Shown here piece after piece: positions 10,095-64,000 of a stretch of 64,000 nucleotides of DNA; within the stretch, counting starts at the first letter, position 1, and each line of letters begins with the position of its first letter. Both the position numbers and the translations under genes were made by a program. The DNA is from Trypanosoma brucei (Eukaryota), in contig CM000208.1 of assembly GCA_000002445.1 (NCBI GenBank), positions 2,624,001 through 2,688,000 on the forward strand, written 5' to 3'. Below the pieces are notes generated by a model, which saw only the letters and a program-made list of their open reading frames with translations, ran no database searches and had not been told where the DNA came from.

Positions 10095-11615
10095 TGCTAT
10101 GTCACCCTCAGGTTGTGCCTCAGGTTGTGCAGGTGTGCTTCTGCAGGAACTTGCTGTGGTTCTTCAAGCTCTTCAAGTGCTTCCACTGCTATGTCACCCT
10201 CAGGTTCGCTGCCTCAGGTTGTGCTTCTGCAGGAACTTGCTGTGGTTCTTCAAGCTCTTCAAGTGCTTCCACTGCTATGTCACCCTCAGGTGCCGCTGCC
10301 TCAGGTTGTGCTTCTGCAGGAACTTGCTGTGGCTCTTCAAGCTCTTCAAGTGCTTCCACTGCTATGTCACCCTCAGGTGCCGCTGCCTCAGGTTGTGCCT
10401 CAGGTTGTGCTTCTGCAGGAACTTGCTGTGGCTCTTCAAGCTCTTCAAGTGCTTCCACTGCTATGTCACCCTCAGGTGCCGCTGCCTCAGGTTGTGCCTC
10501 AGGTTGTGCTTCTGCAGGAACTTGCTGTGGTTCTTCAAGCTCTTCAAGTGCTTCCACTGCTATGTCACCCTCAGGTGCCGCTGCCTCAGGTTGTGCCTCA
10601 GGTTGTGCTTCTGCAGGAACTTGCTGTGGCTCTTCAAGCTCTTCAACTGCTTCCACTGCTATGTCACCCTCAGGTTGTGCCTCAGGTTGTGCTTCTGCAG
10701 GAACTTGCTGTGGCTCTTCAAGCTCTTCAAGTGCTTCCACTGCTATGTCACCCTCAGGTGCCGCTGCCTCAGGTTGTGCCTCAGGTTGTGCTTCTGCAGG
10801 AACTTGCTGTGGTTCTTCAAGCTCTTCAAGTGCTTCCACTGCTATGTCACCCTCAGGTGCCGCTGCCTCAGGTTGTGCCTCAGGTTGTGCTTCTGCAGGA
10901 ACTTGCTGTGGCTCTTCAAGCTCTTCAACTGCTTCCACTGCTATGTCACCCTCAGGTTGTGCCTCAGGTTGTGCTTCTGCAGGAACTTGCTGTGGCTCTT
11001 CAAGCTCTTCAAGTGCTTCCACTGCTATGTCACCCTCAGGTGCCGCTGCCTCAGGTTGTGCCTCAGGTTGTGCTTCTGCAGGAACTTGCTGTGGCTCTTC
11101 AAGCTCTTCAAGTGCTTCCACTGCTATGTCACCCTCAGGTGCCGCTGCCTCAGGTTGTGCCTCAGGTTGTGCTTCTGCAGGAACTTGCTGTGGCTCTTCA
11201 AGCTCTTCAACTGCTTCCACTGCTATGTCACCCTCAGGTTGTGCCTCAGGTTGTGCTTCTGCAGGAACTTGCTGTGGCTCTTCAAGCTCTTCAAGTGCTT
11301 CCACTGCTATGTCACCCTCAGGTGCCGCTGCCTCAGGTTGTGCCTCAGGTTGTGCTTCTGCAGGAACTTGCTGTGGCTCTTCAAGCTCTTCAACTGCTTC
11401 CACTGCTATGTCACCCTCAGGTGCCGCTGCCTCAGGTTGTGCCTCAGGTTGTGCTTCTGCAGGAACTTGCTGTGGCTCTTCAAGCTCTTCAAGTGCTTCC
11501 ACTGCTATGTCACCCTCAGGTTGTGCCTCAGGTTGTGCTTCTGCAGGAACTTGCTGTGGCTCTTCAAGCTCTTCAACTGCTTCCACTGCTATGTCACCCT
11601 CAGGTGCCGCTGCCT
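7860..11615. repeat. Tandem array of 84/87/99-nt coding repeats (28/29/33 aa), about 40 copies
   Basis: Direct reading. The unit ...atgtcaccctcaggtgccgctgcctcaggttgtgc[ctcaggttgtgc]ttctgcaggaacttgctgtggctcttcaagctcttcaa(c/g)tgcttccactgct recurs with 87-nt spacing (for example 7921 to 8008). Variants carry a 12-nt insertion (99 nt) or a 3-nt deletion (84 nt). Confidence 0.95.
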
Positions 11616-14600: not shown

Positions 14601-15138
14601 TCCTCGCAGAAACCTCCTTGTCTAACTCATGCTGTGTTTTGTCATGGTCGTATTTTGTTAGCACCTGCTGTAGGCGTGAAGACCGCCATAGTCTAATATT
14701 ACTGTCAATTTGCGCGATTTCCTCCTCAATTGAAGGACTGTCATTAACAATGTGTCGTTGACTAAAAAAAACAGAGTTTAACACAGGTTGCCCGGCATCA
14801 GGAAGGGACTTGCTCACCTCTGTATAAAACGTCATATCGTGCATTGCATCACTAACCAACAACCCCTTAGCCACATCATCTGCTGCTGCAGCGCCGGCGT
14901 ACACGGACGGTCCTTTCGGACGCCGGAAAGAGGAGAGGGGGAGATAATCCGGCTTTGAGGGTTTGGCAGGGATCTTCAATTGCTTGCTATCGACCTCTGT
15001 GCTGACTTGCTCCAGTAGTGGTTCTGCAACCGTCGACGTTGTTGTAGGTTGCTCCTTGGCCTGCTCCTGAGGCGATCTCCCCTCGCCTGGGGAATTATTA
15101 TACATTGCTACTGCTGTTGCTATTTTCCCCCTTTCCAC
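10189..15138 (-). CDS. Giant repetitive protein, N-terminal 1649 aa. A unique charged, coiled-coil-like domain of about 450 aa is followed by about 38 copies of a 19-aa repeat (LEPEDQKELDIAQPEVIQT), then in-frame 28/33-aa repeats.
   Basis: Long ORF with a unique N-terminal region (15138 to about 13780) and a seamless in-frame junction between the two repeat types at about 11.62-11.64 kb. Together with 7857..10094 it would encode about 2400 aa. Confidence 0.8.
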   Translation of the reverse strand: MERGKIATAVAMYNNSPGEGRSPQEQAKEQPTTTSTVAEPLLEQVSTEVDSKQLKIPAKPSKPDYLPLSSFRRPKGPSVYAGAAAADDVAKGLLVSDAMHDMTFYTEVSKSLPDAGQPVLNSVFFSQRHIVNDSPSIEEEIAQIDSNIRLWRSSRLQQVLTKYDHDKTQHELDKEVSARIRKKEENERNRTLRRIDRMLDTLLPKVQETIDRISKEKYEHISAKTRETLDIKDKQRSETHRQVLRDMHAKQRQRLVERQYQKNIQERIALDTKHYFSYMEIMVDLRRSYLLLQEAFHELKKVVGVVEDEGKLRQRMEKNEQINRGDILQEMERRTIYLKAKEARISSAQTPLTETISKKQTCKEANQKRQSLPQNTKILDPKKSFAHAHETAEQQQWHQPQLKKQDSTTNQDPQEVQLPKENKPQKEKLKTNDHQEEITQENKKKEREHTEKIAFKKLEPEDQKELDIAQPEVIQTLEPEDQKELDIAQPEVIQTLEPEDQKELDIAQPEVIQTLEPEDQKELDIAQPEVIQTLEPEDQKELDIAQPEVIQTLEPEDQKELDIAQPEVIQTLEPEDQKELDIAQPEVIQTLEPEDQKELDIAQPEVIQTLEPEDQKELEIAQPEVIQTLEPEDQKELDIAQPEVIQTLEPEDQKELDIAQPEVIQTPEPEDQKELDIAQPEVIQTLEPEDQKELDIAQPEVIQTLEPEDQKELDIAQPEVIQTLEPEDQKELDIAQPEVIQTPEPEDQKELDIAQPEVIQTLEPEDQKELDIAQLEVIQTLEPEDQKELDIAQPEVIQTLEPEDQKELDIAQPEVIQTLEPEDQKELDIAQPEVIQTLEPEDQKELDIAQPEVIQTLEPEDQKELDIAQPEVIQTLEPEDQKELDIAQPEVIQTLEPEDQKELDIAQPEVIQTLEPEDQKELDIAQPEVIQTLEPEDQKELDIAQPEVIQTLEPEDQKELEIAQPEVIQTLEPEDQKELDIAQPEVIQTLEPEDQKELDIAQPEVIQTPEPEDQKELDIAQPEVIQTLEPEDQKELDIAQPEVIQTLEPEDQKELDIAQPEVIQTPEPEDQKELDIAQPEVIQTLEPEDQKELDIAQPEVIQTLEPEDQKELDIAQPEVIQTLEPEDQKELDIAQPEVIQTLEPEDQKELDIAQLEVIQTLEPEDQKELDIAQPEAAAPEGDIAVEAVEELEEPQQVPAEAQPEAQPEGDIAVEALEELEEPQQVPAEAQPEAQPEAAAPEGDIAVEAVEELEEPQQVPAEAQPEAQPEAAAPEGDIAVEALEELEEPQQVPAEAQPEAQPEGDIAVEAVEELEEPQQVPAEAQPEAQPEAAAPEGDIAVEALEELEEPQQVPAEAQPEAQPEAAAPEGDIAVEALEELEEPQQVPAEAQPEAQPEGDIAVEAVEELEEPQQVPAEAQPEAQPEAAAPEGDIAVEALEELEEPQQVPAEAQPEAQPEAAAPEGDIAVEALEELEEPQQVPAEAQPEAQPEGDIAVEAVEELEEPQQVPAEAQPEAQPEAAAPEGDIAVEALEELEEPQQVPAEAQPEAQPEAAAPEGDIAVEALEELEEPQQVPAEAQPEAQPEAAAPEGDIAVEALEELEEPQQVPAEAQPEAAAPEGDIAVEALEELEEPQQVPAEAQPEAANLRVT
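11615..13775. repeat. Tandem array of a 57-nt coding repeat (19 aa), about 38 copies, highly homogenised
   Basis: Direct reading. ttgatcttcaggctcaagtgtctgaatcacctcaggctgcgcaatgtcaagctcctt repeats with exact 57-nt period; only a few point variants (caa/cgg/cga, gtc/ttc). Confidence 0.95.
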
Positions 15139-32714: not shown

Positions 32715-33779
32715 ACTCGTGGCGGAGTACAGGTCTCCCTCCTCACGTTAGTGCGCTTCCCTTTCCACGCACCACCTTCTGCACCGCAGACAACTCACGC
32801 CGCGATTCGACAGCTGTGCTGCTCGCTCGGCGTAGGGAACGAGCGGCAGAGTTTTTTCAAACCCGATAAATATAAAATATTTATTTCGGTGCCTTCTCTC
32901 CCTTTCAAATGGTAAACCCGTCACTTTATTGACAAAACAAAGGCGCCGTTCCTCTGTCTGTAGCGCCACCTCCTGAGGCGCCTGTACCTTTAGTTCCCGA
33001 TACGTGTAAGGGTCTCCCTTTAAAAAAAAAAATACAGTCGAAGCGGCTAACTGACTTCCAGTTAAAACAAACTGGATACGACAAACTCGAGTGAGTTTGT
33101 TATGCGCACATCCGTGTGTGTTGTGAGGATAAAAGGGGGTTAAAGCAAGCAAAGATCGGGGGAAAGAGGAAAGAAATGGCTCTGGCGCAAGGAGAACTAA
33201 GTGTTTCGCGCGTTGTTAGGGAAACATCCCAGTGAAGAAATAAAAAAACAAAACGTTTCCGTGTGCGTAGCGCAGGTCCCATGTAACGCCTGCCTTACCC
33301 CACATCATGTATCTCGACTAACCTTTTTCCAATGGAAAATATAAGCAAGACGTTATCCGAATGATCGTGTCCTGACACCGGCTACCGGGTGTTGCTTTAG
33401 GGAGGCAGTGGCCACCGGCAATTCTTTTCACGCAACACGAAGGGTGAAGTTCTTCCAGTTACTCTGGCAGAAGGAGCTAACACCGCGTGCAACTTTATCT
33501 CCATTTCCGTCCCCTTCCAGTTACGATCCCCAGGAGCCACCAATCAAGGAATACTTCGGTCCCCACAGGGAAGTCGTTGAATGATGTTATCGTGAACGGT
33601 GCCACCTACTTGTCTTTTACCAAAAGACGAGACCGCCGAGGTATAGGGGGAAAGGTTCTAGTTTCCTTACTTGCATTCCTAGTTCCTTCTATCCTTATCA
33701 GTATGCAGTAAAGGCAAACCCCCTAAAATGGGAAAAGAGAGCAAGAGCTCACAGCGGAATTGTGATGTAGACCTGCCAG

Positions 33780-51377: not shown

Positions 51378-52811
51378 CTACACTGTAGGATTTGGTTGGG
51401 GGCAGGGCGCTTGCCCATAAGAGTGACCCTGTTGTTGCGGTGGTGGCGGTTGGCCGTAAGTATAGCCTCCTTGTGGTGGTGGCGGTTGGCCATACGTGTA
51501 CCCTTGTTGCGGTGGTGGCTTCCCATAAGTATACCCTCCTTGTTGCGGCGGTGGTGGTTGGCCATACGTGTGCCCTTGTTGCGGTGGTGGTGGTTGCCCA
51601 TAGGGATAACCTTGTTGTTGCGGCGGTGGTGGTTGCCCATAAAGGTAGCCCTGCTGCGGCAGTGGTTGGCCGTAGGCATAACCTGGTGGTGGTGGTGGTT
51701 GTGATTGTCCGTATGTATAAGGAGAGCCATCCCCCTGAGGTGTATCAGGATCACTCGTATCATTGGATGAAGAGCCCTTACGCTTCAGACAGAAGCAAAC
51801 TACACACACACACACGGCAATTTCCAGAAGAAGGAGCAGCGATCCGGCCACGATACAAGCGATTCCCATTGTCCGATTCGGAACGCCGAATTCACCCTCG
51901 CCCATCGTTTCACGCTCGAGTGCGATGAAAGGATCTCCCTCACTGTATAACTGCACCTGAACCTTATCCTGGGGTACCGCCTCGTATCCCTGGGACAGAT
52001 GTCCAAAACTGTACAACGCGCTCTGATATTGGGTACTTTCCCTGTACCCCCCTTTTCCATCGCTTGCAGCGACAAGATAGAGCTTGGACAAATACACTTC
52101 CTGCTTGCAGTAGCCGCACTTTTCACCCAACCGACATTTCGAGCTTTGAGTAGTGTATTGGCCACCTTGTGAATAGCACTTGTTCCTAAATTGCTCGTGC
52201 TTCTCTTGACAGTCACATTTTCTGGAATATCCAGAACATTGAGAAGAACTGCAGGAGAACCATCTCTCCCTTGTTGCATGAAGAGGTGACCTCCGCGTGA
52301 ACGGTGCGACGGTGTTAATGTTCACCTTCACTACCAGTTGGCTGCCATCGGTGTTACCGCTAACCGGGACGGTGGCTTCAGTGTAAACGGACGGTATCGG
52401 ACCAAAACCCGCGACGGACAGTGACTGCCGTCTGACGGTGGCCTTCACATCACTGAATGTTCCAGTCCAACTCTCCAGGGGCTTTGGGTCGAATGCACTC
52501 ACCGCCTTCTTGAAATTGTCACGAGGGTCGTCGCTGGAGAGGAAAAGTACGCCAACACCGATGAGGACAGGGCCTCCAATGAGGAGACAACATAGGCACG
52601 CAACCGCGGTCTTGAAGAATTCACCGACAGAGTGCACGAGCTGTTCGATGCACATGAAGCTTTTCCTTGCGACGGCGTTAGCTCTGCACAACGAGTAGGG
52701 AAGAAAGGTGAGAGTAGGGTTTGGCGGTGGAAGCACGCGCGCACACGCATAATCGAAACTTACAACTGAGCACACGAAAAAGCGAGTTACAAGCACAAAT
52801 TTGTCAACCAA
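51378..52811 (-). CDS. Membrane protein with a Cys-rich ectodomain, one TM helix (MGIACIVAGSLLLLLEIAVCVCVVCFCL) and a cytoplasmic tail of about 8 GYxYGQPPPPQQ repeats (Pro/Tyr/Gln-rich)
   Basis: ORF on the array strand. N-terminal signal-anchor-like segment. 12-aa imperfect repeats at the C-terminus (51378 to about 51700). The first repeat contains PPGY. Confidence 0.65.
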   Translation of the reverse strand: MVDKFVLVTRFFVCSVVSFDYACARVLPPPNPTLTFLPYSLCRANAVARKSFMCIEQLVHSVGEFFKTAVACLCCLLIGGPVLIGVGVLFLSSDDPRDNFKKAVSAFDPKPLESWTGTFSDVKATVRRQSLSVAGFGPIPSVYTEATVPVSGNTDGSQLVVKVNINTVAPFTRRSPLHATRERWFSCSSSQCSGYSRKCDCQEKHEQFRNKCYSQGGQYTTQSSKCRLGEKCGYCKQEVYLSKLYLVAASDGKGGYRESTQYQSALYSFGHLSQGYEAVPQDKVQVQLYSEGDPFIALERETMGEGEFGVPNRTMGIACIVAGSLLLLLEIAVCVCVVCFCLKRKGSSSNDTSDPDTPQGDGSPYTYGQSQPPPPPGYAYGQPLPQQGYLYGQPPPPQQQGYPYGQPPPPQQGHTYGQPPPPQQGGYTYGKPPPQQGYTYGQPPPPQGGYTYGQPPPPQQQGHSYGQAPCPQPNPTV

Positions 52812-52856
52812 CCGCCGAGATATTAGAACCAGCGGGCAGTAGCAGTAGCGGATCCT

Positions 52857-53861
52857 TCACAACTTCTTTACTTCACCCACAGTCCTCTGCCGCATCAGCG
52901 TTAGGAGTGTCTCGACAGTGGCGCTGTCATTTCGCTCGTCCTCCACCTTTCGGAACTGTAAGCGAAGCTTCCGCGCCTCTTTTTCGTGTAGTTTTTGTTG
53001 GATGCTGTCAACATAATGCTGTTTCTCCCGGTTGCGAGAGCCGCTCATAACGTAGCCGAGGGACTCCGCAGCAGCAACGCTCTCCGCATCGTATCCAATC
53101 TCCCCACGACGCGGTGCTCGCTTATACTGTGCAAGGAACTCCTCGCGGGTCATTTGCAGTGGATGCTTTGAAGCAGCGACGCACCCTCGTGGCTCCTCGG
53201 TTTTGCTGTAGTCCGGTTCGTTGCCTTGTTGCAACGACACACCAAACTCGTCACCCCCATCATCCCCCGTCTGTGCACCTACCCGTAGCCCACGGCACTC
53301 ACCGTCGGCGGTGGCGCCGCCGCTACGTGGTGGCGCCGGGCACATTACATGACAGACGCCACTGTCGGTCTTGATAGGCCCTACACCTTCTACAGTTTCC
53401 CTCGCACGCGCTGCCTCGATGAGGGCTGCGAGCGCGCTGGGGGTTGGGGACACCCCTGCCGCGTCAACACGCCTAACCTCATGCGCGGTGCTGGTCGCCA
53501 CCTCTGGTTCGTGGTGGTCATCACATGGTGACGGAGACGCTGCCGACACTTCCCCTGCGCTAGGACTCTCTCCCTCTGCGTCGTAGCCTACACCTGAGGA
53601 GCGCACGAGGAACGCAACAGTTTCGCTCAACGGGCTCTCCCCCGTCCTCGTTCCGTCACCCCGTCCGTTCACCGTACAAGTTCGCTGGGGACGCGACTGT
53701 CCCGGTAGACTCCCTCTCTTTCCAAGCGCGGATAGTTCGTGCACAGCCAACGTGTGATGCGTGCAAAATATGTTTTGCGCAATAACGGAATGCACAACTT
53801 TCTCTAGCTCCCTACCGCGAGGTTCCATTGCAGGGCACCAAAAGGCACCAGTCCCTGCCAT
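52857..53861 (-). CDS. NKAP (DUF926)-like nuclear protein, 334 aa
   Basis: C-terminal PRRGEIGYDAESVAAAESLGYVMSGSRNREKQ matches the NKAP C-terminal domain signature (GYVMSGSRH). Confidence 0.55.
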   Translation of the reverse strand: MAGTGAFWCPAMEPRGRELEKVVHSVIAQNIFCTHHTLAVHELSALGKRGSLPGQSRPQRTCTVNGRGDGTRTGESPLSETVAFLVRSSGVGYDAEGESPSAGEVSAASPSPCDDHHEPEVATSTAHEVRRVDAAGVSPTPSALAALIEAARARETVEGVGPIKTDSGVCHVMCPAPPRSGGATADGECRGLRVGAQTGDDGGDEFGVSLQQGNEPDYSKTEEPRGCVAASKHPLQMTREEFLAQYKRAPRRGEIGYDAESVAAAESLGYVMSGSRNREKQHYVDSIQQKLHEKEARKLRLQFRKVEDERNDSATVETLLTLMRQRTVGEVKKL

Positions 53862-54111
53862 TAACGGACCCCTCGAAGCCTAACTTCCTTTATTGAAAGA
53901 GCTGCAAGAGCAGATTAGATGAGTGCTAAGTACGTTGGAGGCACAAAGCACTGCGGCCCAATGGACGTCAGCTTCACATTCACCCGGGAACAAGCAAGTG
54001 CAAAGCAACTCCGATAAAAAGAATAGTCAGGTGTGAAAACACACTGTGTCCGGCGGGTGCGGCGAAAAGGAATACCTTTTTTAAAAAAAAAATGTGGTGC
54101 GCGGTTTTTCT

Positions 54112-55398
54112 TTACTTATCCTCCCTTTTGGCCAGTCCAATCCAGAATGTTTGCCTTAATCTAGACGACACATCAAGAGCTTCCACCATCTCTATAAGTT
54201 CTTCCCTCGATTTCAGTGGTATACTCTGTTGTGGATGGCGATTGTGTTTTATTTTCGGTGACGCGTTGTGTTTCCGATCCTTTCGCACGTTTTTATCGAT
54301 TATTCTGTTTGATTTCTTTGTACTATCTTTTTTCTTCTTCGATTGATCTTGCCGTGTTTTCATTGTTTCAATTTCCGACGCTTCGATGGGGATGTCGTTT
54401 TTATTGTCACTGTCATCCAACTTCTCTTCGAAGTACACTATTTTCCCGTTGACTACCCTAAGGTCACCATCTTTTACCCATGTTGCATTTGGTATCGGTT
54501 CTTGTGGAACAGAAGAGGGCTTGCTGTGTACTGGCTCTGATTGGTCGGTGGTACACTGGGGGTCTGGGGTTGGTGGCGCATCTGGTGCCGACGTTTCTCT
54601 TCGTATTAACTGCGGTGCTGGCCGACTTAACGACGAAGGGACAGCCTTCTTTTCCAACCGTCTTTTTCTCGCTAACTTCTCGTTAAGTGTGTCACGAGAA
54701 TGAACTCGGAGAGCTGGGCCAGCCGTATCTAGTTTTCTCAATAAACCCCTTTGTTCTGCTGGTCGTATGTCTTGGGCCACACAATGCAACGCAGTCATGC
54801 ATGCGGGTAGGTTGTACCTTCGTGAAAATGGTAGCGGATGGCGAGAAAGCCGCGGTTCTCGTTTCGCTGGCAGCAGCGAGAAAGTTCGTCGTACTGCTGT
54901 GGGTGCAACACGAGCACAGCCCTCGTTTTTGCACAACTTATGGAAGTACTCAGTTGCTTCCTGCGTTCGACTGGCTAGAATTGTCAAATGATGTGGCCGC
55001 TGTGTGCCACTGAACGGCAAGAAGGCTGTACTCAGATCCAATACCGACGTATTGATGAAGCTGCCCACTATTTGAGCGGCGAACGTTACCTCATCAACTG
55101 CAGTCACCACCTTTCCTTCCTTTTCACAATTACCAGATTCTCCACGAATTTCAGCGTCGTAGCGCCGTTGTTGAGCGATTGCGAGTCTGCACATGGATGA
55201 GAGGATGTGCAGGGCAGAGGAGCGTTCCGTCTGCTGTATCAGTCGCCGTGAAAACAACGGACACAAAATGGTACGCGAGGCGACATCGGGAAGACGATCC
55301 GCCATCGCGAGTAGTTTGTTCCGGTAATCCGCATCGGATTCGATATTTTTAAATATGTAAGAAACTGACCATGGTACAAGTGCATCCTCAGCACTCAT
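54112..55398 (-). CDS. Hypothetical protein, 428 aa, Lys-rich C-terminal region
   Basis: Long ORF on the array strand. No domain recognised. Confidence 0.55.
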   Translation of the reverse strand: MSAEDALVPWSVSYIFKNIESDADYRNKLLAMADRLPDVASRTILCPLFSRRLIQQTERSSALHILSSMCRLAIAQQRRYDAEIRGESGNCEKEGKVVTAVDEVTFAAQIVGSFINTSVLDLSTAFLPFSGTQRPHHLTILASRTQEATEYFHKLCKNEGCARVAPTAVRRTFSLLPAKREPRLSRHPLPFSRRYNLPACMTALHCVAQDIRPAEQRGLLRKLDTAGPALRVHSRDTLNEKLARKRRLEKKAVPSSLSRPAPQLIRRETSAPDAPPTPDPQCTTDQSEPVHSKPSSVPQEPIPNATWVKDGDLRVVNGKIVYFEEKLDDSDNKNDIPIEASEIETMKTRQDQSKKKKDSTKKSNRIIDKNVRKDRKHNASPKIKHNRHPQQSIPLKSREELIEMVEALDVSSRLRQTFWIGLAKREDK

Positions 55399-55710
55399 CC
55401 GGCAAGAATCAAGTCACTCCTTACTATATCCTCCTAAGACCGGGGTGCTCGGACAGGTTAATATCACAAGTTTCGGTATGTGAGTAATGAAAATTCAACA
55501 GGTGATCTAACAAAGGGTAGAACTACCGTGCACTATTTTTGGTTGCAGCCACAGTGCCAGACGAGTTGAAATATTATGTTTTTGCCTCAGAGAAATGTAA
55601 AAGAAAAAATACTGAGACATCATAGCTGGTTGGATCCTCTGGAGATCACTTCAATATACATCACGCACCCATAGTTGCCCATGTGTTACCCACAACTCTC
55701 AAACTGATAA

Positions 55711-58449
55711 TCAGTGCAGAGATGATGCTATATCAGAAAGATCATCCGCAAGTTCAGGGTATTTGTCGGTTAGCTCTCCTAGTATTTCGGCGAATGCCCT
55801 CCGTTTTTCGTTCAGTCTCGATGCCTCAGCTGCCGTATGCTTTAACTCTAGAGCGGACTTGTACGTTCCCTTCTCTGCGTCACGAATGCGCTGGAGACTC
55901 GAGTTCTTCGCGCGTCGCTCGTCCTCTAAACGGTCGTGTTCCTTTTGAGCGACAACAAGTTGTGAGCGAAGCTCGGAAATCTGTTCGTCAAGAGTGTCTA
56001 TTTCCCGCTGAACAGATTCTGCCTCGGCCGTTGTCTTCTCAATGGAAGCAAGACGTTCCTTGATCTGACGCTCTTTTAGCTGCGCCTCTTGTCTTTTTTC
56101 ATTTAACTCCTTAAACATCCTGGAACTTTCTTTTTCAATATCCATTCTCGTCACTCCCCGCTTGTTCACTTTGGCAGCCTCTTGGATCGCCTGGCCTTTT
56201 GCCCTGATGATCTCCCGATGATCAATTGACTTCTGCATTTCTTCAATTAAAAACCGCTGTTCACGCTGCAGGTGACTGACTCGCTGTTCCATGATCCCAA
56301 TCTCTTTTCTCATTTTCTCTACTTCTGCTTTACCAACCGAAGGATCTAACGCCATCTCAGTTTCTTTAGCAACTTGCATTTTCCTCTCCCAAAACAATAT
56401 ATCACTTTCATGATTCATAATTTGTTCAAGGAGTTCGGTTTTCGCCTGTCTAGCTTCCTCCACCTTTTGCTCAAGCACGATCGCCTCACGCTTTTTTTCC
56501 TGGAGTCTACGAATGAGATCATTCTCGAGAAGAAACGCTTCGTTGGCAACGTTCTTCTGATCATCGGAATTTTTGCAAAGTTGAGTGTTTACCCGTTTCA
56601 TCTCTAGGTGCATGGCATTCGCCTTGTTTTCGAGGTTTGCAATGTCCTTTTTCTCGTTTGATATATTTACTAGAAGTCGATCCCTTTTTTGTGTTAGTAC
56701 AGTGCTCTGGGCCTGGAGCTCAAGAATCGCTTCGTTCACTTCATTTGAATTGTTTTTACAGTTAACCAACTCTGTTTGCAGTTTTATCCATTCCTGTTGG
56801 AGAGCCTCATTTTCATTGACTTTTTCCGCAATTGCTTTTGAAAGACTGTTAATGGTGGCCTCCAGGGGCCCTACGTGTTCCCCCTTGTCGGCGCCATAAG
56901 CAGCGACAAGTTGTTCATACTGGTGGTTGAGTTGGTCTAGTTGTTTTTGCTTCCTGTCGATCTCGTCGTGTCGACGGTGAATGTCCATTTGCATGCGTTC
57001 GACCATCAGGCCACGAGCTTGTAGCTCCTTTTCGAGATCGCCCAATGTGGTTTTCAGGGTCTCATTATGTGACTGAGCCTGCAGTGTGTCCACACGAATG
57101 CGAGCAAGTTCGTTCTCCATTTGTGCCACTTGAAGCTCCTTGGATCTAATGGAGCCTTTCATTTTTTCGATATCACTCAACGTACCGTGGCACTCTTGTT
57201 TCAGTGAGGACTGCTTACCAAGTGACTCGAGTATGTCATTTTCCATCAGGACCACCTCCTTAGAAACCTTCAACATCTTCTTCTCGATATCGGCAGCTTC
57301 GGTAGAGTATGTTCTTGCCTCGTATTCCAGCTTTTTGGCTTCTGCATCTGTTTGTTCAATATTATCCTTCAGCATCACGTATTCACGTGCGCCTTTCTCC
57401 TTTCTTTCCACAAGGACATCGATCTGCTTCCCTAGAACGGTAACTTCGTTGTCAACTCGAGACATGAATTCAGCCAATTTGGCAGTCTCTGCTTGAACGC
57501 CTTTAATGTCTTTCCTTGTCCCAATTATCTCGTTCTCGAGCACTTGTAGCTCATCTTTCTGCTGTTGCAGTGCCTCTTCTGTCTTTTTCATGGCTTCGTG
57601 ACGCCGTTGCATCCCAATGAGCGTACCCTTCCACTGTTGAACTAATTGTTTTTTTTCAAAATTAATTGCCTCCATTTCTGCCAAAGCTTCAGCTAATATT
57701 TCCCGAGCCTTCTGGGTTTCCCTTTGCTGGTTCTCGACCTGGGAGTTAACCGTGGATATTTCTTCTTCTAGCAGAACAACACGTTTCTCCAAAGAATCTA
57801 TAAGGTTGTCTTGCTTCAACTTTTCCTTCTCCAAGTTGGTTATATCTTCCTCTGTTTTGAAAGCAGCACGGCGCTCCACTTGAACTTCGTTTTTGAGTTG
57901 TTCATTAAACTGTTGGACTTTCACTAATGTTTCAGTAAGCTTTAAAAGATCCGCCTGCTGACGTTCGTATTGTCGTTGCTGGTCCTCAATGTTTTTCCGA
58001 AGTGTGTCTGCCTGCGCAGCAAGTTCCTCTCGTTCTTGAAGCTTTTCCTCGTGTTTTTGCTTTGTTGCGAGGTGCTTTTCATGGCATTTCTCAAGAGTTT
58101 CCTGCAACTTGGCAAGGTGTTGCTGGGAATTGTAAAGCTCAACACCGCATTGCTCCCTTTCTTTCTGAGCCTTAGATAATTCATTCTTTACTTCATAGAT
58201 CTGCTGCATGACCTCTTCCAGATGCTGTCGAAGTTGCGCTTCAATGCGCTTCTGGACCGGTGCGAGCACCGCAGATTCCGGGTCCAGGTCGGAAACATCG
58301 CTTGCAACATCGTATGGTACGTCGGACATAGATTCTCCTGCGGAATAACTGTAGTGAGCAAGATCAGTTGTGAAAAAAGCACAAATAAAGGTACACGCAC
58401 AAAAAAAAAGGAAAGCAAAAAAAAAAAAAAAAGAGCATAGTCGATACAT
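55711..58449 (-). CDS. Long coiled-coil protein, about 870 aa. True start probably MSDVPYDV with ATG at 58327-58329; the track start at 58449 translates the upstream pyrimidine tract.
   Basis: Heptad-like, Glu/Lys/Gln/Leu-rich sequence throughout. A purine-rich plus-strand tract at 58370-58440 lies immediately upstream of the MSDV start. Confidence 0.7.
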   Translation of the reverse strand: MYRLCSFFFFFAFLFFCACTFICAFFTTDLAHYSYSAGESMSDVPYDVASDVSDLDPESAVLAPVQKRIEAQLRQHLEEVMQQIYEVKNELSKAQKEREQCGVELYNSQQHLAKLQETLEKCHEKHLATKQKHEEKLQEREELAAQADTLRKNIEDQQRQYERQQADLLKLTETLVKVQQFNEQLKNEVQVERRAAFKTEEDITNLEKEKLKQDNLIDSLEKRVVLLEEEISTVNSQVENQQRETQKAREILAEALAEMEAINFEKKQLVQQWKGTLIGMQRRHEAMKKTEEALQQQKDELQVLENEIIGTRKDIKGVQAETAKLAEFMSRVDNEVTVLGKQIDVLVERKEKGAREYVMLKDNIEQTDAEAKKLEYEARTYSTEAADIEKKMLKVSKEVVLMENDILESLGKQSSLKQECHGTLSDIEKMKGSIRSKELQVAQMENELARIRVDTLQAQSHNETLKTTLGDLEKELQARGLMVERMQMDIHRRHDEIDRKQKQLDQLNHQYEQLVAAYGADKGEHVGPLEATINSLSKAIAEKVNENEALQQEWIKLQTELVNCKNNSNEVNEAILELQAQSTVLTQKRDRLLVNISNEKKDIANLENKANAMHLEMKRVNTQLCKNSDDQKNVANEAFLLENDLIRRLQEKKREAIVLEQKVEEARQAKTELLEQIMNHESDILFWERKMQVAKETEMALDPSVGKAEVEKMRKEIGIMEQRVSHLQREQRFLIEEMQKSIDHREIIRAKGQAIQEAAKVNKRGVTRMDIEKESSRMFKELNEKRQEAQLKERQIKERLASIEKTTAEAESVQREIDTLDEQISELRSQLVVAQKEHDRLEDERRAKNSSLQRIRDAEKGTYKSALELKHTAAEASRLNEKRRAFAEILGELTDKYPELADDLSDIASSLH

Positions 58450-58526
58450 AAAGCACCAGCTCGGACACCGTTTGCACGACCTAGCGAAGGAAAGTGGTCA
58501 GAGGGGAACCCCAAAGCCCATATTGC

Positions 58527-59162
58527 TCACACTGTCTTTTTACTCTGTCGTCGCTCTTCGCACTCTGCCCACTGAGGCATCTTGTTAATTTCCCGATAAT
58601 CGGGCAACGGTGCCTGGTCAATACCACTCTGATGTGGTCGATACTTCTCAGGAAGCTCCGGTATAACGCGATAACTGTAATCAACTGTTTTGAATTGCTT
58701 ATAGTATAACCACTCTTCTTTCGTATCAAATCTCTCAGGTGGATTTCCATTCTGAAACGCCTGAACAGCCGTTCGAATAGCGTCTCGAGTCATCCGTGGG
58801 ATTCCCCTTACACGTAGTTGTCGTTTGTCGCAAGTAAATAAATCATTCCAGTCCTTAAACGATGCCTTGAAGTCACTCGTGGGCCTCAAACGGTGTATAT
58901 CAGCTCTTTCTAGAAATGTCTCGTGGTTTGGTACATAAGATGTAGGAGGACGTATGGACTGTGGAACAATTTCCGATCGCTGTGTGGTTTCTATTGGTGC
59001 CAACTTGCGTGGATCCGGCATGTACGTATACTTGTACGACTTGTGTGGCCCATATGTTTGATCTAAAACAGTTAACGTTCTTTTCAGCATCCTTAGACCA
59101 CCCTTTCTCAACAGGCTCAAAAAAAGTGAGAGTTTTGAGGGGGCATGCGTAGCTTCTGACAA
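58527..59162 (-). CDS. Hypothetical protein, 211 aa (possible start at MLKRTLTV)
   Basis: ORF on the array strand. No domain recognised. Confidence 0.5.
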   Translation of the reverse strand: MSEATHAPSKLSLFLSLLRKGGLRMLKRTLTVLDQTYGPHKSYKYTYMPDPRKLAPIETTQRSEIVPQSIRPPTSYVPNHETFLERADIHRLRPTSDFKASFKDWNDLFTCDKRQLRVRGIPRMTRDAIRTAVQAFQNGNPPERFDTKEEWLYYKQFKTVDYSYRVIPELPEKYRPHQSGIDQAPLPDYREINKMPQWAECEERRQSKKTV

Positions 59163-59344
59163 CTTATCTGCTTAAAGCGAGATCTAGGGAAACTTACCAT
59201 AACACACAACACATTACCCGCTCCCCTTACCCGACGTTTCACAAGTTCATATTAGAGAGTTGGAAGCAAACAGGTCAAAGGATCATGACGACTTCTCTGG
59301 TACCGTGCTTCGCTTTTTATTCGACTACTTAATTTATCTAGCTT

Positions 59345-60094
59345 TCAGTTGTGGACTTGCACCCCCACCACTGCTGCTAATAGTCCCGGGATTGTTATTG
59401 CTCCACTGCTAACGGTGATAATTTTCCCCTTCACAGTCTTTCCGTTTAGTTGTTGAATACACTTTAGAACAGAATCAGGCGACCTGTAGAACACCATTGC
59501 CATGGTCTCATAACGGCTCAGATCGATTAACTCTCCAAACGGCGAAAATAATCGGGCTACCTGATCGTTAGTCATGTTAAAAGGAACGTTGTCTACCAAT
59601 GCTACGCTGGCCCGCGCGGGTGGCGTAAATGGATGGTGTCGAATTGCATTATTCCCTTTGTTACTTGTTCGCTCGCTGCCGCTACCTGGGCCTATCACGC
59701 TTGGGTGGCGTCGCCGGTTCCCTTCGCGTTTTCTTTCATTGAATGTGACGTCCCCTTTATCAGTCGCCCCGAAGGAAAAAATTTCCATTGCAGGATCAAT
59801 TAACATATTCTTTCCCATTTTGCGCATCCTTTGCTTAGCCTTTGGTTCTTCAATCTTTCGTACTAGCCCCGGAACGGCATCTATCCGCGAAGTGGCATCC
59901 CTAGCAGCCTCCTTGTCGCTAAACTTAATGAAAACGCTCGTCGTATTTTCTTTACCTTCTTTGGTTCGTAGAGAACCCACCGCCTCCACGCCAGGCCACT
60001 CGCGGACAACGGCTTCAATACGTTGAAAATCGTGCGTGGGGCAATATGCCAGCAGCACAGAAGGATCCACCATATATATATATATATGCGGCAC
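59345..60094 (-). CDS. RNA-binding protein with two RRM-like domains, about 240 aa. True start probably MVDPSV about 60071; the track start translates an (AT)n run.
   Basis: Two segments with RRM-like beta-alpha-beta patterns (SVFIKFSDKEAARDA...; LVDNVPFNMTNDQVARLFSPFGELIDLSRYETMAMVFYRS). Confidence 0.6.
   Translation of the reverse strand: MPHIYIYMVDPSVLLAYCPTHDFQRIEAVVREWPGVEAVGSLRTKEGKENTTSVFIKFSDKEAARDATSRIDAVPGLVRKIEEPKAKQRMRKMGKNMLIDPAMEIFSFGATDKGDVTFNERKREGNRRRHPSVIGPGSGSERTSNKGNNAIRHHPFTPPARASVALVDNVPFNMTNDQVARLFSPFGELIDLSRYETMAMVFYRSPDSVLKCIQQLNGKTVKGKIITVSSGAITIPGLLAAVVGVQVHN
60072..60087. repeat. (AT)8 microsatellite at the 5' end of the RRM gene
   Basis: Direct reading: atatatatatatatat. 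Confidence 0.9.
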
Positions 60095-60099
60095 TCCCT

Positions 60100-63000
60100 T
60101 AAGATGCGCAGTACGTGCGTTCGCGGGAAATAATAGGCTAGAATGCTGGTGGATTGTGTGTGCTACTGTCGTGTGTAATTTAAAAAAAAAGTATTAGTTA
60201 TATTACAAGGGGCATAATAACTTTAAAAGTACCAGCGAGGACCTGCTGCGGCTCTAAAAGGGGCAAATACAGACGCAGCACGAAATCAACGGGGCCTCAA
60301 AACCGAACATGGTCGTGCCAAGACACACTCATTCAACTGTATATCGCGGTTTGCGGCATCCATAGTGATGCGGCAAGAGCCCCCGCGCATATGAGAAATG
60401 TCAACTGGACAGAGCTCCGTCCACATAAAAGTTGGAGGGGATCACTGAGAAGCAAAATTGGAAGACAATCAAAAACATACTTAGCAATGGCAAGGACTTT
60501 CAACCGAGTCAGCATCAGTGCATATGCCACAAATGACGTTACGGTGTAAAAATCGATACGCTACACCCATTTTTTTTTTGAGCACGAAACAACGATGCGG
60601 CAGTAGACGTGTCGACAGCCCCCTCAGCGCAGACGCATCGGCTTTACCACGGCCCTCCGCCGTCACGAGTCGCCGGCAACAACACCAGTGGAAACCGCAT
60701 TAACAACACGAATTGGATAAGGAAGACAAAAAGATCGGGGTCTGAGGAGGCAGCAGGAAGCATTTGATGTCCTCCAGCGACCCTGAGAAGCTCCCGACGC
60801 TACAGGGAAAGGAGAATCGCAGTGGCCAGCCACACCGTTTACCAAACGTGAAAGCAGATGCCGGGGCTTTCAGCGCCGAGTTGCGTCAACGCCATCCACA
60901 AGCACCAATCCACTAGGCCTTGAAAGAAGTTTCCACACATGTCGGGGTCACAGTACCCGAAGCACACCAAGAATAAAGCACCAAAGCGGGAGGCGAACGT
61001 AGGAAGTGATAGACTAGGTGAAGTAAACGATCGAAGGCATGTAACGCAAACGCCCACAAAAGCAAACTGCCGGCCTGCGAGGGGATCTGCGCCACACACG
61101 TGCCTACAGACCAGCGCAGTGTCAGATCAGAGACCGGCTTAGGGGCAGTAGAACCCGACCCCTCCACAAGGAAGGAGCTACCGCACATCCGCCGCCACGT
61201 CTTCGGCAACGAGAGGGCTTCGTCCAGGAACTATGGGACGGGTTGCTGTGGCAGAAACGCTAAGGCGGAACAGACGGCTTCTATTGGATGTGAGTGAAAA
61301 CGAAGGGTCCTCATTTGTCTGCTCCACAACCCCTCAGCTGTATGTTATGCTTCGGTCGATGAGAAAGAGACGGGGTGGGCGCGATCCTACTTCAGAGCCA
61401 CCCGCTTCTCAAGGGCAACTGCAGCCCTTTAGGGGGGGGGGCCCAACACTCTACGCCACAGTTCCGACCCATTTTTCTGGTAACAAAGTAAGAGCACTAG
61501 GATCATTGATGTCGAAGGTCAGTATCAGGTTTCGTTCCCGAACAGCCCAATCGCCAGTGCAGGGGCTGACTTACCTTCAAAGATACGACCGTAGGAGAGA
61601 TGCAGTCTGACGCTGCGTTCCAAATCATTCTCCATCAATGACCTAACGGCCGATATATGTCGAAGGCACGGGGTGTCCCCACTTTTAATTCTATCACAAG
61701 ACGATGTGCCGTCAATAGAAAAGGGCCATGTGTTCCGCGTTTAGGTCAACCAAGCGTTGGGGAGGGCTGACCGAGCCGGCGAAGCCCCAGTTTCCATGAG
61801 TAGGTGAAGGATTTTCTCTTATCACCTACACTGACTCCTCAGACACACTGCACTAGCCACCAGACGACCGGAAAAGACACATTCCGCTAAGCTGGTAACC
61901 AAAACTTCCTGATTTAGGCTTTTTCGGACTAGCGCGACCATTTTTTTTTTTTCTAAAGGTGCTTCCTGTGAGCCTTTTAGATTTTCCAACTCTCGAAATC
62001 GACTAATACCAGCCAGTAAACAAGTCCAGAACAAACCTAGATTTGCTGAAGCTCTGCGCGGCACTGTTGTAAGTAAAAAAATGCAGGGGGGGACGCACAC
62101 CCACAACTAAGGGAACGCGGTATATTCGGTGTCTTGGTAGTCTCACATTATGCACTATCCAACTTCCTGGCAGCGCCACGTCGCGAGGACGCCACAGCCA
62201 TCTCTCAGCAAGTTGTCAGGGTTGGCCGTTGGAGTTCAAACCCAGGCACATAGGCGGCTCCTCCCGTAAGGGACCGGTTGACAATCCCCACTTTTCGTAA
62301 TGAAGTTAGAGGTGCTTCGGGTTCTAGTAGATTTATATAAGAAAATTCTTTGTTTTCATTGAGCTCCACAATTCTAAAGTAAAAACTACATCTGAGAAGA
62401 AAAGGTTTATCCTAAAAGTTTTTAGAAGAATATTTTCCCTTCATACCCATGAAAACCTCCTGCCACACGGGAAGGCATCAGTAAATGCATAAAACTTTTG
62501 CCATAGTTGTACGACATTCGGTGCTACCGGTAACTTGGTCGCATATTCCCAGAAACTTCAGCGGAATTAGCATACCACAGCACTGCAACAAGGTACTGCT
62601 CACGTTTGCCTAATGCAGTTGAATTTCCACACCAGAAACCATAGAAGAGAGGGAACAGTAATTGCTTTCGTCCATCACCCGGAGCTGATACTGAACCTGC
62701 GTTGCTCCTCATAAGGAGCCAGAACGAACCGCGTGGGAAACCTTCGAATTCTCACAGGAGACGAACCCAACAAACCGAAGCCACAAACCTATAGTGTGGG
62801 ACGTGCCGTGACGCCACAAGACAGACCATTCTAGGGATTATTTGTGTTGTCCACGTGAACTCAGGAGGGGTCTCGGATTCCAGCCATTTCAGGAGAGTTG
62901 CAGGTACAGGCTTCGCCGTTATCCGCGCCACCCGTGAAATTTCAGTTCATCAACGTGTGTCCGAACACTATGGAAGTCCCCATCCAGCACGACTTAGTTT

Positions 63001-64000
63001 GAGTGTGGGGGCAAAAGCGGTGTCAGAGGAATGACATGCTACACCCAAAGCAACGGTTTTACTCCCCGAGTAGCAAAAGTGTGTTTGAGGGGGTGGTTCA
63101 ACCTCTGGGTCATTCTTGTGTTTTTTCTTATTTGGTCTCATGGTGAAGTTTTGGTGTTTTTGTGGTTGCTTGATCATGTGCGACTACCGCTTATAATCAA
63201 TCAGACATTGTATCGGAAAAATATCACATTTCCCGTACTCTTCCAAAGATTTACTTTCCCTGCCGACGATCCTTGCATTTCATGGAGCCGGCCAGCACAA
63301 TATATCTCAAATGTCTTGGAACGCACGCCAACACCATTCTCTATTTTTTTTCCCACCAAAACGCGGCCTTGCGAGGCCGCTATTTTCCCCAGCCGGCTTT
63401 ATTTACCCTACTCAACTGCGTAGATGGTTGTGTTCTTTCCACGGTAAAAAGCGAGATCGAGCGGGAGAATGCTTTTTGCGCGTGTATACAGGCACGCATT
63501 TGCTTATTTTCTTAATGTTCGGACATATTTTAAATTCAGTGCTAATTAAATATACAACGCTTTCCCCTGTTCATTTTCCCGCTACCCAATGTTCTTGTTT
63601 CGTCTACCCTCGAGGAAAAGGATGTTTCCCCCCTCTAGTCCACACATGTCAAGACCAGGTTCTCCAGCGGGGGGATGTCACCCACGTTCTACCAAGTTCC
63701 TTCAACAATCAAATCAGGATTCTGCTTAACATTTCCGCTGTACACTCGGAGGGGGTGGAACACATCGTTCCGTAGTGCACAGCGCAGGGTTTGGCACAGT
63801 CGGGAGTATTTTTCATCGAAGGTATGGAAAGGCTTCGTGCCTCTGACGTGGTCCCTGAAAGACCATCGCTAACACCACCTCGGTATCAGAGGGGATGTGC
63901 TGAGGTTTAGTTCTTCATCCGTGCAGTGCCGAAAGGCCCCTATGGTCGCACGGTGATTCTCTTCGCAGTAGCGCTCACTACTAGTCGGAGTGTCCCCGAA
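60100..64000. other. ORF-poor region of about 3.9 kb at the upstream (right) end of the minus-strand gene array. It may be a transcription-start or strand-switch region, or a long spacer containing a degenerate element. It contains a G9 run at 61433-61441.
   Basis: No ORF longer than 154 aa on either strand. Several short overlapping ORFs in different frames. Composition differs from the coding array. No tRNA-like T-loop found by eye. Confidence 0.4.

What the first reader, a model, noticed from the sequence alone, without database searches (positions are those of the whole stretch)
60100..64000. 3.9 kb ORF-poor region at the 5' side of the array: candidate transcription-start/strand-switch region or degenerate element
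After 27 back-to-back minus-strand genes, coding potential stops abruptly. Only short ORFs appear, overlapping in different frames and on both strands (60839..61099, 60913..61209 minus; 61233..61610, 63311..63775 plus). The region contains a G9/C3 run (61433-61444). If the array is transcribed right to left, this is where RNA pol II initiation (or a divergent strand switch with tRNA or snRNA genes) would be expected. Alternatively the overlapping frames could be the ghost of a frameshifted retroelement or RHS-type pseudogene. I could not find a convincing tRNA T-loop/acceptor pattern or spliced-leader sequence by eye.
Basis: inference. Interest (0 to 1): 0.55.

Follow-up and report, generated by a model that had tools for sequence, protein, structure and literature searches.

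The report
Known trypanosome divergent strand-switch region
The gene-poor 3.9 kb is the already-mapped point on Trypanosoma brucei chromosome 10 where two long gene arrays start and run in opposite directions, and most of it is copied into a published 3.1 kb non-coding RNA, so it is ordinary.

Summary
After RBP23 (Tb927.10.11270, ATG at 60073) nothing in 60074-64000 looks coding. The ORFs are no longer than chance, have non-coding codon usage, and give no Pfam, tRNA or Rfam match.

The window is T. brucei TREU927 chromosome 10 (v4 2,624,001-2,688,000). In the 99%-identical T. b. equiperdum chromosome, the next conserved gene (Tb10.26.0690 orthologue) lies on the plus strand at about 65135. The region is therefore a roughly 5 kb divergent strand-switch region. 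The same switch is present in T. theileri, T. cruzi and T. melophagium.

It is already published. Kolev et al. 2010, Table S14, lists Tb10.26.0740 (minus strand) and Tb10.26.0690 (plus strand) as the first ORFs of two 'Divergent' Pol II units. Their Table S7 lists a 3,148-nt trans-spliced, polyadenylated transcript, Tb10.NT.128, at window 63434 to 60286 on the minus strand.

Most of the flagged interval is therefore a lncRNA-like first product of the leftward array. Leftward initiation must lie right of 63434, at or beyond the window edge.

The retroelement and RHS-ghost alternative is not supported. The only loose end is that the G10 tract points the 'wrong' way for a nearest-array promoter. 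Verdict: already known, low interest.

The parts
59345..60073 (-). RBP23 (Tb927.10.11270 / Tb10.26.0740) coding sequence, 242 aa. It is the first protein-coding gene of the leftward polycistronic unit.
   Evidence: It is 100% identical to XP_823336.1 and has an RRM_1 domain. [quoted passage not shown] Kolev Table S14 lists it as the first ORF of its unit.
60074..60285 (-). RNA-processing spacer between the poly(A) site of Tb10.NT.128 and the RBP23 start. On the minus strand it carries a T9 polypyrimidine tract (plus-strand A9 at 60182-60190) followed by several AG acceptors. An (AT)8 microsatellite lies at 60072-60087.
   Evidence: Read directly from the sequence; tandem repeat finder. The link between the poly(A) site and the downstream polypyrimidine tract is inferred from the established trypanosome processing rule.
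60286..63434 (-). Tb10.NT.128: a 3,148-nt SL-trans-spliced, polyadenylated transcript with no coding signature, at about 1.6 RNAs per cell in procyclic forms. It is the first processed product of the leftward unit.
   Evidence: Kolev 2010 Table S7 gives chr10_v4 2687434 to 2684286, minus strand. The offset of 2,624,000 was checked against three stop codons. The longest sense ATG ORF is 91 aa, against 94.6 in shuffles.
63435..63470 (-). Trans-splice signal of Tb10.NT.128: an AG acceptor (plus-strand 'ct' at 63435-63436), preceded on the minus strand by the polypyrimidine tract ttctcccgctcgatctcgcttttt.
   Evidence: The sequence at the published splice-site coordinate.
63435..64000 (.). Left part of the roughly 1.6 kb core between the first splice site of the leftward unit (63434) and the polypyrimidine tract and ATG of the first rightward gene (about 65026-65135, outside the window). 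This is the most likely location of the back-to-back promoters.
   Evidence: Inferred. The plus-strand G+T fraction rises above 0.5 from 63001 onwards.
61432..61444 (+). G10 tract followed by CCC. GGGGGGGGGG is the top coding-strand 10-mer at the 5' ends of T. brucei transcription start regions. Here it lies on the plus strand, inside the minus-strand transcript.
   Evidence: Wedel 2017 Dataset EV1 gives 132 coding-strand versus 17 non-coding-strand occurrences; 10-mer map. The tract is G9 in T. b. equiperdum.
63031..63775 (+). Two overlapping orphan ORFs (63031..63423 and 63311..63775). They fuse into one 247-aa ORF in T. b. gambiense (TbgDal_X13620) and T. b. equiperdum because the T8 run at 63344-63351 is T7 there. 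Judged non-coding.
   Evidence: The codon-usage score is -0.028, against 0.013-0.176 for real genes and -0.021 +/- 0.037 for chance ORFs. No homologue was found outside T. brucei.

Best explanation
The region is the left four-fifths of a roughly 5 kb divergent strand-switch region, which is also a Pol II transcription start region. It lies on Trypanosoma brucei chromosome 10, between RBP23 (the leftward array) and Tb10.26.0690 (the rightward array).

RNA polymerase II initiates in both directions from open chromatin marked by H2A.Z and H4K10ac, without a canonical promoter. Each primary transcript is then cut into individual RNAs by SL trans-splicing coupled to polyadenylation.

Going leftward, the first splice acceptor is at 63434. 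The first mature product is therefore a 3.1 kb non-coding RNA, Tb10.NT.128 (63434 to 60286). RBP23 is only the second product.

Shown here or in published tables for this locus:
- the divergent gene order;
- the absence of coding capacity;
- the processed transcript and its splice signal;
- the listing of this locus as a 'Divergent' Pol II unit.

Inferred:
- both promoters sit back to back in the roughly 1.6 kb between 63434 and about 65030;
- the chromatin marks are present at this locus.
For: Identity of the window:
- RBP23 is 100% identical to the T. brucei TREU927 protein.
- Window coordinate equals chr10_v4 coordinate minus 2,624,000. This was verified on three stop codons.

Divergent arrangement:
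- T. b. equiperdum chromosome 10 is 99.05% identical over 12 kb. Upstream of RBP23 it carries genes on the opposite strand.
- The conserved 437-aa orthologue maps to window position about 65135.
- The same RBP23 / 437-aa divergent pair occurs in T. theileri, T. cruzi and T. melophagium.

Published evidence for this locus:
- Kolev 2010 Table S14 lists 'Tb10.26.0740 ... minus strand ... Divergent' and 'Tb10.26.0690 ... plus strand ... Divergent'.
- Kolev reports 5'-triphosphate reads enriched at every divergent unit.
- PMC9757043 names RBP23 as the first gene of its PTU.
- T. brucei divergent strand-switch regions are typically 5-10 kb.

The transcript:
- Table S7 lists Tb10.NT.128.
- An AG acceptor and polypyrimidine tract sit exactly at 63434.

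No coding capacity.

Strand composition: the minus strand is GT-rich from 60.0 to 63.0 kb, and the plus strand is GT-rich from 63.0 kb onwards. The gap-free T. melophagium strand-switch region shows the same pattern.
Against: - No ChIP-seq or TSS-seq data could be read for this locus, so the initiation sites are not pinned down.
- The G10 tract at 61432 is on the plus strand, 2 kb inside the minus-strand transcript. That is the opposite of what a simple back-to-back arrangement predicts.
- Sequence beyond 64000 comes from a sister subspecies, not from TREU927.
- Tb10.NT.128 rests on one 2010 RNA-seq study in procyclic cells.
Confidence: 0.9

Rival explanations
1. This is the same strand-switch region, but the two start regions are interleaved rather than back to back. 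Rightward initiation would begin near the plus-strand G10 tract at 61.43 kb. Leftward initiation would begin near the minus-strand G10 tract at about 65.03 kb. The 3.6 kb between them would then be transcribed on both strands, and Tb10.NT.128 would overlap an antisense rightward leader.
For: - GGGGGGGGGG is 132 versus 17 in favour of the coding strand at the 5' fifth of start regions.
- Both G10 tracts here are in the common orientation only if the two start regions cross.
- The Wedel coding-strand 10-mers hit the plus strand from 61432 rightwards and the minus strand to the left of 61.1 kb.
- Tb10.NT.128 requires leftward initiation to the right of 63434.
- Kolev reports that all start sites are bidirectional.
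Against: - The run at 65026-65035 sits inside a textbook polypyrimidine tract about 100 nt upstream of the Tb10.26.0690 ATG. That explains it without any promoter role.
- Kolev Table S7 lists no plus-strand processed transcript in 61.4-65 kb.
- The 10-mer hits are few.
- The G+T skew switches at about 63 kb, not at 61.4 kb.
Confidence: 0.2
2. The region hides a real but decayed or frameshifted protein-coding gene. The candidate is the 247-aa ORF at 63031-63772, which is intact in T. b. gambiense and T. b. equiperdum and split in TREU927 by one extra T.
For: - T. b. gambiense annotates it as hypothetical protein TbgDal_X13620.
- One indel in the T8 run joins the two TREU927 ORFs.
- At 247 codons it exceeds the shuffle mean of 147.
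Against: - No homologue outside T. brucei was found among 5.8 billion proteins.
- There is no Pfam match.
- The codon-usage score of -0.028 lies within the chance-ORF distribution and below all 24 real genes tested.
- The substitution rate against T. b. equiperdum is about 9 per kb, like intergenic DNA.
- The local strand is T-rich and A-poor, which lengthens chance ORFs.
- It is not called in the T. b. equiperdum annotation.
- No plus-strand transcript is listed there.
Confidence: 0.04
3. The overlapping short ORFs are the ghost of a degenerate ingi/RIME/DIRE/SIDER retroposon or an RHS pseudogene that inserted at the strand switch.
For: - Retroposons are reported to accumulate at strand-switch regions.
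- The T. brucei strand-switch region (about 5 kb) is much longer than the gap-free 741 bp region of T. melophagium, and its sequence has no counterpart in other species.
Against: - Six-frame translations give no reverse transcriptase, endonuclease, RHSP or any other Pfam hit at E<=1, apart from one chance DUF match at 11 bits.
- There are no direct, inverted or tandem repeats, no target-site duplication and no A-tail.
- The L1Tc-type Pr77 5' pattern gives no match with up to 3 mismatches.
- ORF lengths equal chance.
Confidence: 0.03

Closest known systems
Divergent strand-switch regions / Pol II transcription start regions of T. brucei (Siegel 2009; Kolev 2010; Wedel 2017)
   Same: Two arrays diverge from the region. 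It holds no genes and is about 5 kb long, within the usual 5-10 kb. The coding strand is GT-rich on each side, and a G10 tract is present. The locus is itself listed as 'Divergent' in Kolev Table S14.
   Different: Nothing essential differs, because it is one of them. The only oddity is that the G10 tract lies on the strand opposite to the nearest array, inside a processed antisense-oriented transcript.
Kolev 'novel transcripts' and T. brucei lncRNAs such as grumpy, which lies upstream of RBP7 (Guegan 2022)
   Same: Tb10.NT.128 is SL-trans-spliced, polyadenylated, intergenic and without coding signature. It lies immediately upstream of an RNA-binding-protein gene on chromosome 10, as grumpy does.
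   Different: No embedded snoRNA was detected by Rfam. No function has been tested. At 3.1 kb it is longer than most such transcripts, and it is the first product of a PTU rather than an internal one.
The orthologous RBP23 strand-switch region in T. melophagium, T. theileri and T. cruzi
   Same: The flanking genes and the divergent orientation are the same. The strand-composition switch (CA-rich, then GT-rich) is also the same.
   Different: It is only 741 bp in T. melophagium. The T. theileri and T. cruzi copies contain assembly gaps. There is no sequence similarity to the T. brucei region, so the roughly 3 kb lncRNA unit is specific to the T. brucei lineage or has diverged beyond recognition.

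Membership tests
Trypanosomatid divergent strand-switch region / Pol II transcription start region | Two polycistronic gene arrays on opposite strands pointing away from the region | tested here: met
   RBP23 is on the minus strand. The Tb10.26.0700 ORF and the Tb10.26.0690 orthologue are on the plus strand at about 64468 and about 65135. The same arrangement holds in three other Trypanosoma species.
Trypanosomatid divergent strand-switch region / Pol II transcription start region | No protein-coding gene within the region | tested here: met
   ORF lengths equal chance. Codon-usage scores look non-coding. There are no Pfam hits in any of the six frames. The only protein hit is a hypothetical protein from another T. 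brucei subspecies.
Trypanosomatid divergent strand-switch region / Pol II transcription start region | Experimental evidence of Pol II initiation (5'-triphosphate RNA ends) | tested here: met
   This was a literature look-up, not a computation. Kolev 2010 Table S14 lists both arrays at this locus as 'Divergent' putative Pol II units, and the text says every divergent unit showed enrichment.
Trypanosomatid divergent strand-switch region / Pol II transcription start region | Chromatin enriched in H2A.Z, H2B.V, H4K10ac and BDF3 | not testable with these tools
   No ChIP-seq tracks were available. This is expected from Siegel 2009 as summarised.
Trypanosomatid divergent strand-switch region / Pol II transcription start region | GT-rich sequence and G-runs on the coding strand at the 5' end of each start region | tested here: inconclusive
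   The G+T skew switches strand at about 63 kb, as expected. However, the G10 tract at 61432 is on the plus strand, on the RBP23 side of that switch.
Trans-spliced polyadenylated lncRNA | SL acceptor (AG plus polypyrimidine tract) and poly(A) site, length over 200 nt, no coding potential | tested here: met
   Published ends are 63434 and 60286. The AG and polypyrimidine tract were verified in the sequence. The longest sense ORF is 91 aa, which equals chance.
Trans-spliced polyadenylated lncRNA | No ribosome association and no peptides | not testable with these tools
   It is absent from Kolev Tables S8-S10, which list conserved or peptide-supported novel transcripts. It was found only in file 23, i.e. 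Table S7.
ingi/RIME/DIRE/SIDER retroposon remnant | Residual reverse transcriptase or endonuclease coding sequence, Pr77 5' hallmark, A-tail and target-site duplication | tested here: not met
   The Pr77 test used only the L1Tc-derived partial pattern, so it is weak for T. brucei elements.
RHS (retrotransposon hot spot) pseudogene | Similarity to the RHSP domain in some frame | tested here: not met
   The six-frame Pfam scan gave no hit.
PTU boundary marked by tRNA, snRNA or SL RNA genes | A Pol III or small-RNA gene in the region | tested here: not met
   ARAGORN found nothing in the window or in the 20.7 kb locus L001. Rfam found nothing at gathering threshold in the window or in L001 1-10100. 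Only chance-level hits appeared at E<5.

The most novel reading that the evidence does not exclude
Two unconventional readings are not excluded.

1. The two divergent start regions are interleaved. A G10 tract on each strand (61.43 kb on the plus strand, about 65.03 kb on the minus strand) points towards the other. The 3.6 kb between them would then be transcribed from both strands.
2. The lineage-specific 3.1 kb RNA Tb10.NT.128 is a functional cis-acting lncRNA controlling RBP23 or promoter directionality, by analogy with grumpy upstream of RBP7.
Probability: 0.12. Interest if true: 0.45.

Novelty: already known. Interest (0 to 1): 0.1.

Why it matters
It matters little beyond correct annotation. 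The locus, its divergent arrays and the 3.1 kb transcript were all published in 2010.

The practical point is about reading trypanosome sequence. An ORF-free stretch at the head of an array is not all promoter. Here about 80% of it is a processed non-coding RNA, and the real initiation zone is a roughly 1.6 kb core at the window edge.

The wrong-way G10 tract and the T. brucei-specific expansion of the strand-switch region are small hooks. Anyone holding the TSS-seq and H2A.Z tracks could check them.

Tried and rejected
- tRNA, tmRNA and Rfam scans of the window and of the extended locus found nothing.
- Repeat and tandem-repeat searches found only an (AT)8 microsatellite.
- Six-frame Pfam scans for reverse transcriptase, endonuclease or RHS ghosts found nothing. 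A first attempt failed because the translations contained stop codons.
- The L1Tc Pr77 5' pattern gave no match. The full T. brucei Pr77 consensus is only in a figure of that paper and could not be read.
- Exact-protein look-up of the TREU927 RBP23 found no contig. The T. b. equiperdum cluster member worked.
- blastn and tblastx of the T. brucei strand-switch region against the T. theileri, T. cruzi and T. melophagium loci showed no significant similarity.
- Divergence between TREU927 and T. b. equiperdum is too low to test for constraint. Tb10.NT.128 has 8.6 substitutions per kb, against 2-8 in coding sequence and 8-19 in intergenic DNA.
- Siegel 2009 and Cordon-Obras 2022 are not held in the library.
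- No supplements are held for Guegan 2022 or the polysome paper.
- No paper mentions Tb10.NT.128 or Tb927.10.11280 in its main text.
- It could not be resolved whether the early replication origin OBR:10:2.65 coincides with this strand-switch region.
Full report
**What the window is**

The last minus-strand ORF (59345..60073 from its ATG) encodes a 242-aa RRM protein. It is 100% identical to T. brucei brucei TREU927 XP_823336.1, also known as Tb10.26.0740, on a 4.05 Mb contig, chromosome 10. T. b. gambiense names the same protein RBP23, and the modern ID is Tb927.10.11270.

Three published poly(A)-site and 3'UTR pairs from Kolev et al. 2010 reproduce the stop codons of window ORFs at 58527, 51378 and 49514, provided 2,624,000 is subtracted. 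The window is therefore Tb927_10_v4 2,624,001-2,688,000.

**Checking the observation**

The homopolymer is G10 plus CCC at 61432-61444.

Coding potential really does stop at RBP23.
- The longest stop-free frame in 60074-64000 is 192 codons. Dinucleotide shuffles give 147 +/- 30, and 7.8% of them reach 192.
- Fifteen of the sixteen consecutive 3.9 kb tiles of the window carry a stop-free frame of 443 codons or more. The sixteenth, from 58906, overlaps the flagged region and reaches 282.
- A codon-usage log-odds score was trained on the window's 22 clear genes. Those genes score 0.013-0.176 under leave-one-out, and two held-out genes beyond the window score 0.064 and 0.083.
- Chance ORFs score -0.021 +/- 0.037. 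Every ORF in the flagged region scores between -0.043 and +0.022.
- Six-frame translations give no Pfam hit of any kind.
- There are no repeats apart from an (AT)8 at the RBP23 start.
- There is no tRNA and no Rfam family at gathering threshold. At E<5 only three chance-level hits appear.

**What lies beyond 64 kb**

The TREU927 protein is not indexed by contig. The T. b. equiperdum cluster member did return 20.7 kb of chromosome 10 (locus L001). That locus aligns to window 52001-64000 at 99.05% identity.

Upstream of RBP23, the next called genes are all on the opposite strand.
- A 147-aa ORF maps to window position about 64468-64911. It is Tb10.26.0700, chr10_v4 2688468-2688911. Kolev Table S2 lists it as producing no transcript of its own. 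It has non-coding codon usage and no counterpart in other species.
- Next comes the orthologue of a 436/437-aa gene that is conserved in T. theileri, T. cruzi and T. melophagium. This orthologue aligns over its full length from window position about 65135.
- After that come a 126-aa gene and IFT57.

The ATG-to-ATG distance between the two conserved genes is about 5.06 kb, within the 5-10 kb quoted for T. brucei divergent strand-switch regions.

The same divergent pair, RBP23 and the 437-aa gene, is found in all three other species. The gap-free T. melophagium region is only 741 bp, and it shows a clean strand-composition switch from CA-rich to GT-rich. The T. theileri and T. cruzi copies contain runs of N. 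The T. brucei sequence shows no detectable similarity to any of these loci.

**It is already published**

- Kolev et al. [quoted passage not shown]
- The paper states that 5'-triphosphate reads were enriched at every divergent unit, on both strands.

**What most of the flagged DNA actually is**

Kolev Table S7 lists a novel trans-spliced and polyadenylated transcript, Tb10.NT.128. It runs from 2687434 to 2684286, is 3,148 nt long, lies on the minus strand and is present at 1.59 RNAs per cell. In window coordinates that is 63434 to 60286.

- At exactly that 5' end, the minus strand reads ...ttctcccgctcgatctcgctttttaccgtggaaAG|aacac. This is a polypyrimidine tract followed by an AG acceptor.
- The 3' end lies about 95 nt upstream of the T9 tract and the AG cluster that must serve RBP23. 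That fits the coupling of polyadenylation to downstream trans-splicing, which is established knowledge for trypanosomes.
- Its longest sense ATG ORF is 91 aa, against a shuffle mean of 94.6.
- It is absent from Kolev's tables of conserved or peptide-supported novel transcripts.

About 80% of the 'ORF-poor region' is therefore a lncRNA-like first product of the leftward array. T. brucei has more than 1,400 such SL/poly(A) lncRNAs.

**Where initiation happens (inference)**

Leftward transcription must start to the right of 63434. Rightward transcription must start to the left of the polypyrimidine tract (ctcctcttttCCCCCCCCCCtttgt at about 65015-65040) that precedes the Tb10.26.0690 ATG.

The simplest model puts two back-to-back dispersed promoters in this roughly 1.6 kb core, of which only 63435-64000 lies inside the window. 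The plus-strand G+T fraction supports this. It is 0.41-0.49 from 60.0 to 63.0 kb and 0.51-0.60 from 63.0 to 66.5 kb. This matches the coding-strand GT-richness that Wedel et al. 2017 showed can drive directional initiation.

**A loose end**

Wedel's Dataset EV1 shows GGGGGGGGGG as by far the most coding-strand-biased 10-mer in the 5' fifth of start regions, at 132 versus 17.

Here the G10 tract at 61432 is on the plus strand, 2 kb inside the minus-strand transcript. The only other 10-run, at about 65026-65035 in the T. b. equiperdum extension, is G10 on the minus strand. The two tracts therefore point towards each other.

Wedel's 10-mers also hit the plus strand from 61432 rightwards and the minus strand to the left of 61.1 kb.

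This could mean the two start regions interleave, giving a 3.6 kb stretch transcribed on both strands. Alternatively, both runs may simply be polypyrimidine elements. The 65.03 kb run clearly sits in a splice-signal context. I give the interleaved model about 0.2. Published TSS-seq would settle it.

ORF 63311..63775 has a single database relative, T. b. gambiense hypothetical protein TbgDal_X13620, 247 aa. That protein maps to 63031-63360 in one frame and to 63347-63772 in another.

T. b. equiperdum has T7 where TREU927 has T8 at 63344-63351, and it also carries the intact 247-codon ORF. A longer ORF does therefore emerge after a one-base correction.

It is nonetheless judged non-coding, for these reasons.
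- It is an orphan with no homologue outside T. brucei.
- It is rich in Phe and Leu because the strand is T-rich and A-poor.
- It scores -0.028 on codon usage.
- It diverges at about the intergenic rate.
- It overlaps the Tb10.NT.128 splice site in antisense.
- No plus-strand transcript is listed there.

I judge it a chance ORF, with probability of coding about 0.04.

**Verdict**

The retroelement or RHS-ghost reading is not supported. The feature is an ordinary divergent strand-switch region that is already catalogued. The useful refinement is that most of it is the published non-coding transcript Tb10.NT.128. Novelty: already known. Interest: about 0.1.

Noticed in passing
window 7857-15138: A very large repeat-containing gene. 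It holds an 87-bp unit repeated about 41 times (7898-11619) and a 57-bp unit repeated about 38 times (11613-13767). These keep long frames open on both strands: 1957 aa on the plus strand, and 1649 plus 745 aa on the minus strand. AT skew there is about -0.4. No Pfam match was found.
   Followed up: partly
window 33259-33747 (-): A second Kolev novel transcript, Tb10.NT.127 (chr10_v4 2657747 to 2657259, 488 nt, 3.3 RNAs per cell). It falls in the ORF-free gap between the genes ending at 32714 and 35035.
   Followed up: no
window 63344-63351: A T8 homopolymer in TREU927 that is T7 in T. b. equiperdum and, from the protein, in T. b. gambiense. This single base decides whether two short ORFs or one 247-aa 'hypothetical protein' (TbgDal_X13620) gets annotated.
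   Followed up: yes
L001 3624-4922 (window-equivalent about 65135-66433): The T. b. equiperdum annotation starts the Tb10.26.0690 orthologue at an internal Met, giving 347 aa. Alignment with the 436-437-aa orthologues and the open frame both support a 433-aa protein starting 258 nt further upstream.
   Followed up: partly
L001 5146-5589 (window-equivalent 64468-64911): Tb10.26.0700, a 147-aa 'hypothetical protein', is probably not a gene. It has no transcript of its own in Kolev Table S2, no orthologue in three other species, and a codon-usage score of -0.036.
   Followed up: yes
window as a whole (chr10 2.624-2.688 Mb): Tiengwe et al. 2012 name an early-firing replication origin OBR:10:2.65 on chromosome 10, and report that origins sit at transcription-unit boundaries. 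The nearest boundaries are this strand-switch region (2.684-2.689 Mb) and the boundary near 2.60 Mb. Which one hosts the origin could not be resolved.
   Followed up: partly
L004 about 9490-9890 and L005 about 8940-9960: Both the T. theileri and the T. cruzi assemblies have runs of N exactly inside the orthologous strand-switch region. Their apparent lengths (847 and 1414 bp) are therefore unreliable.
   Followed up: no
window 60072-60087: An (AT)8 microsatellite overlaps the RBP23 start codon. It accounts for most of the indel columns between TREU927 and T. b. equiperdum at that gene.
   Followed up: no
window 54112-55398 (-): A 428-aa ORF with no Pfam domain has positional counterparts of 427-452 aa called in T. 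theileri, T. cruzi and T. melophagium. It is not called in the T. b. equiperdum annotation, which has a gap at L001 14360-16240.
   Followed up: no
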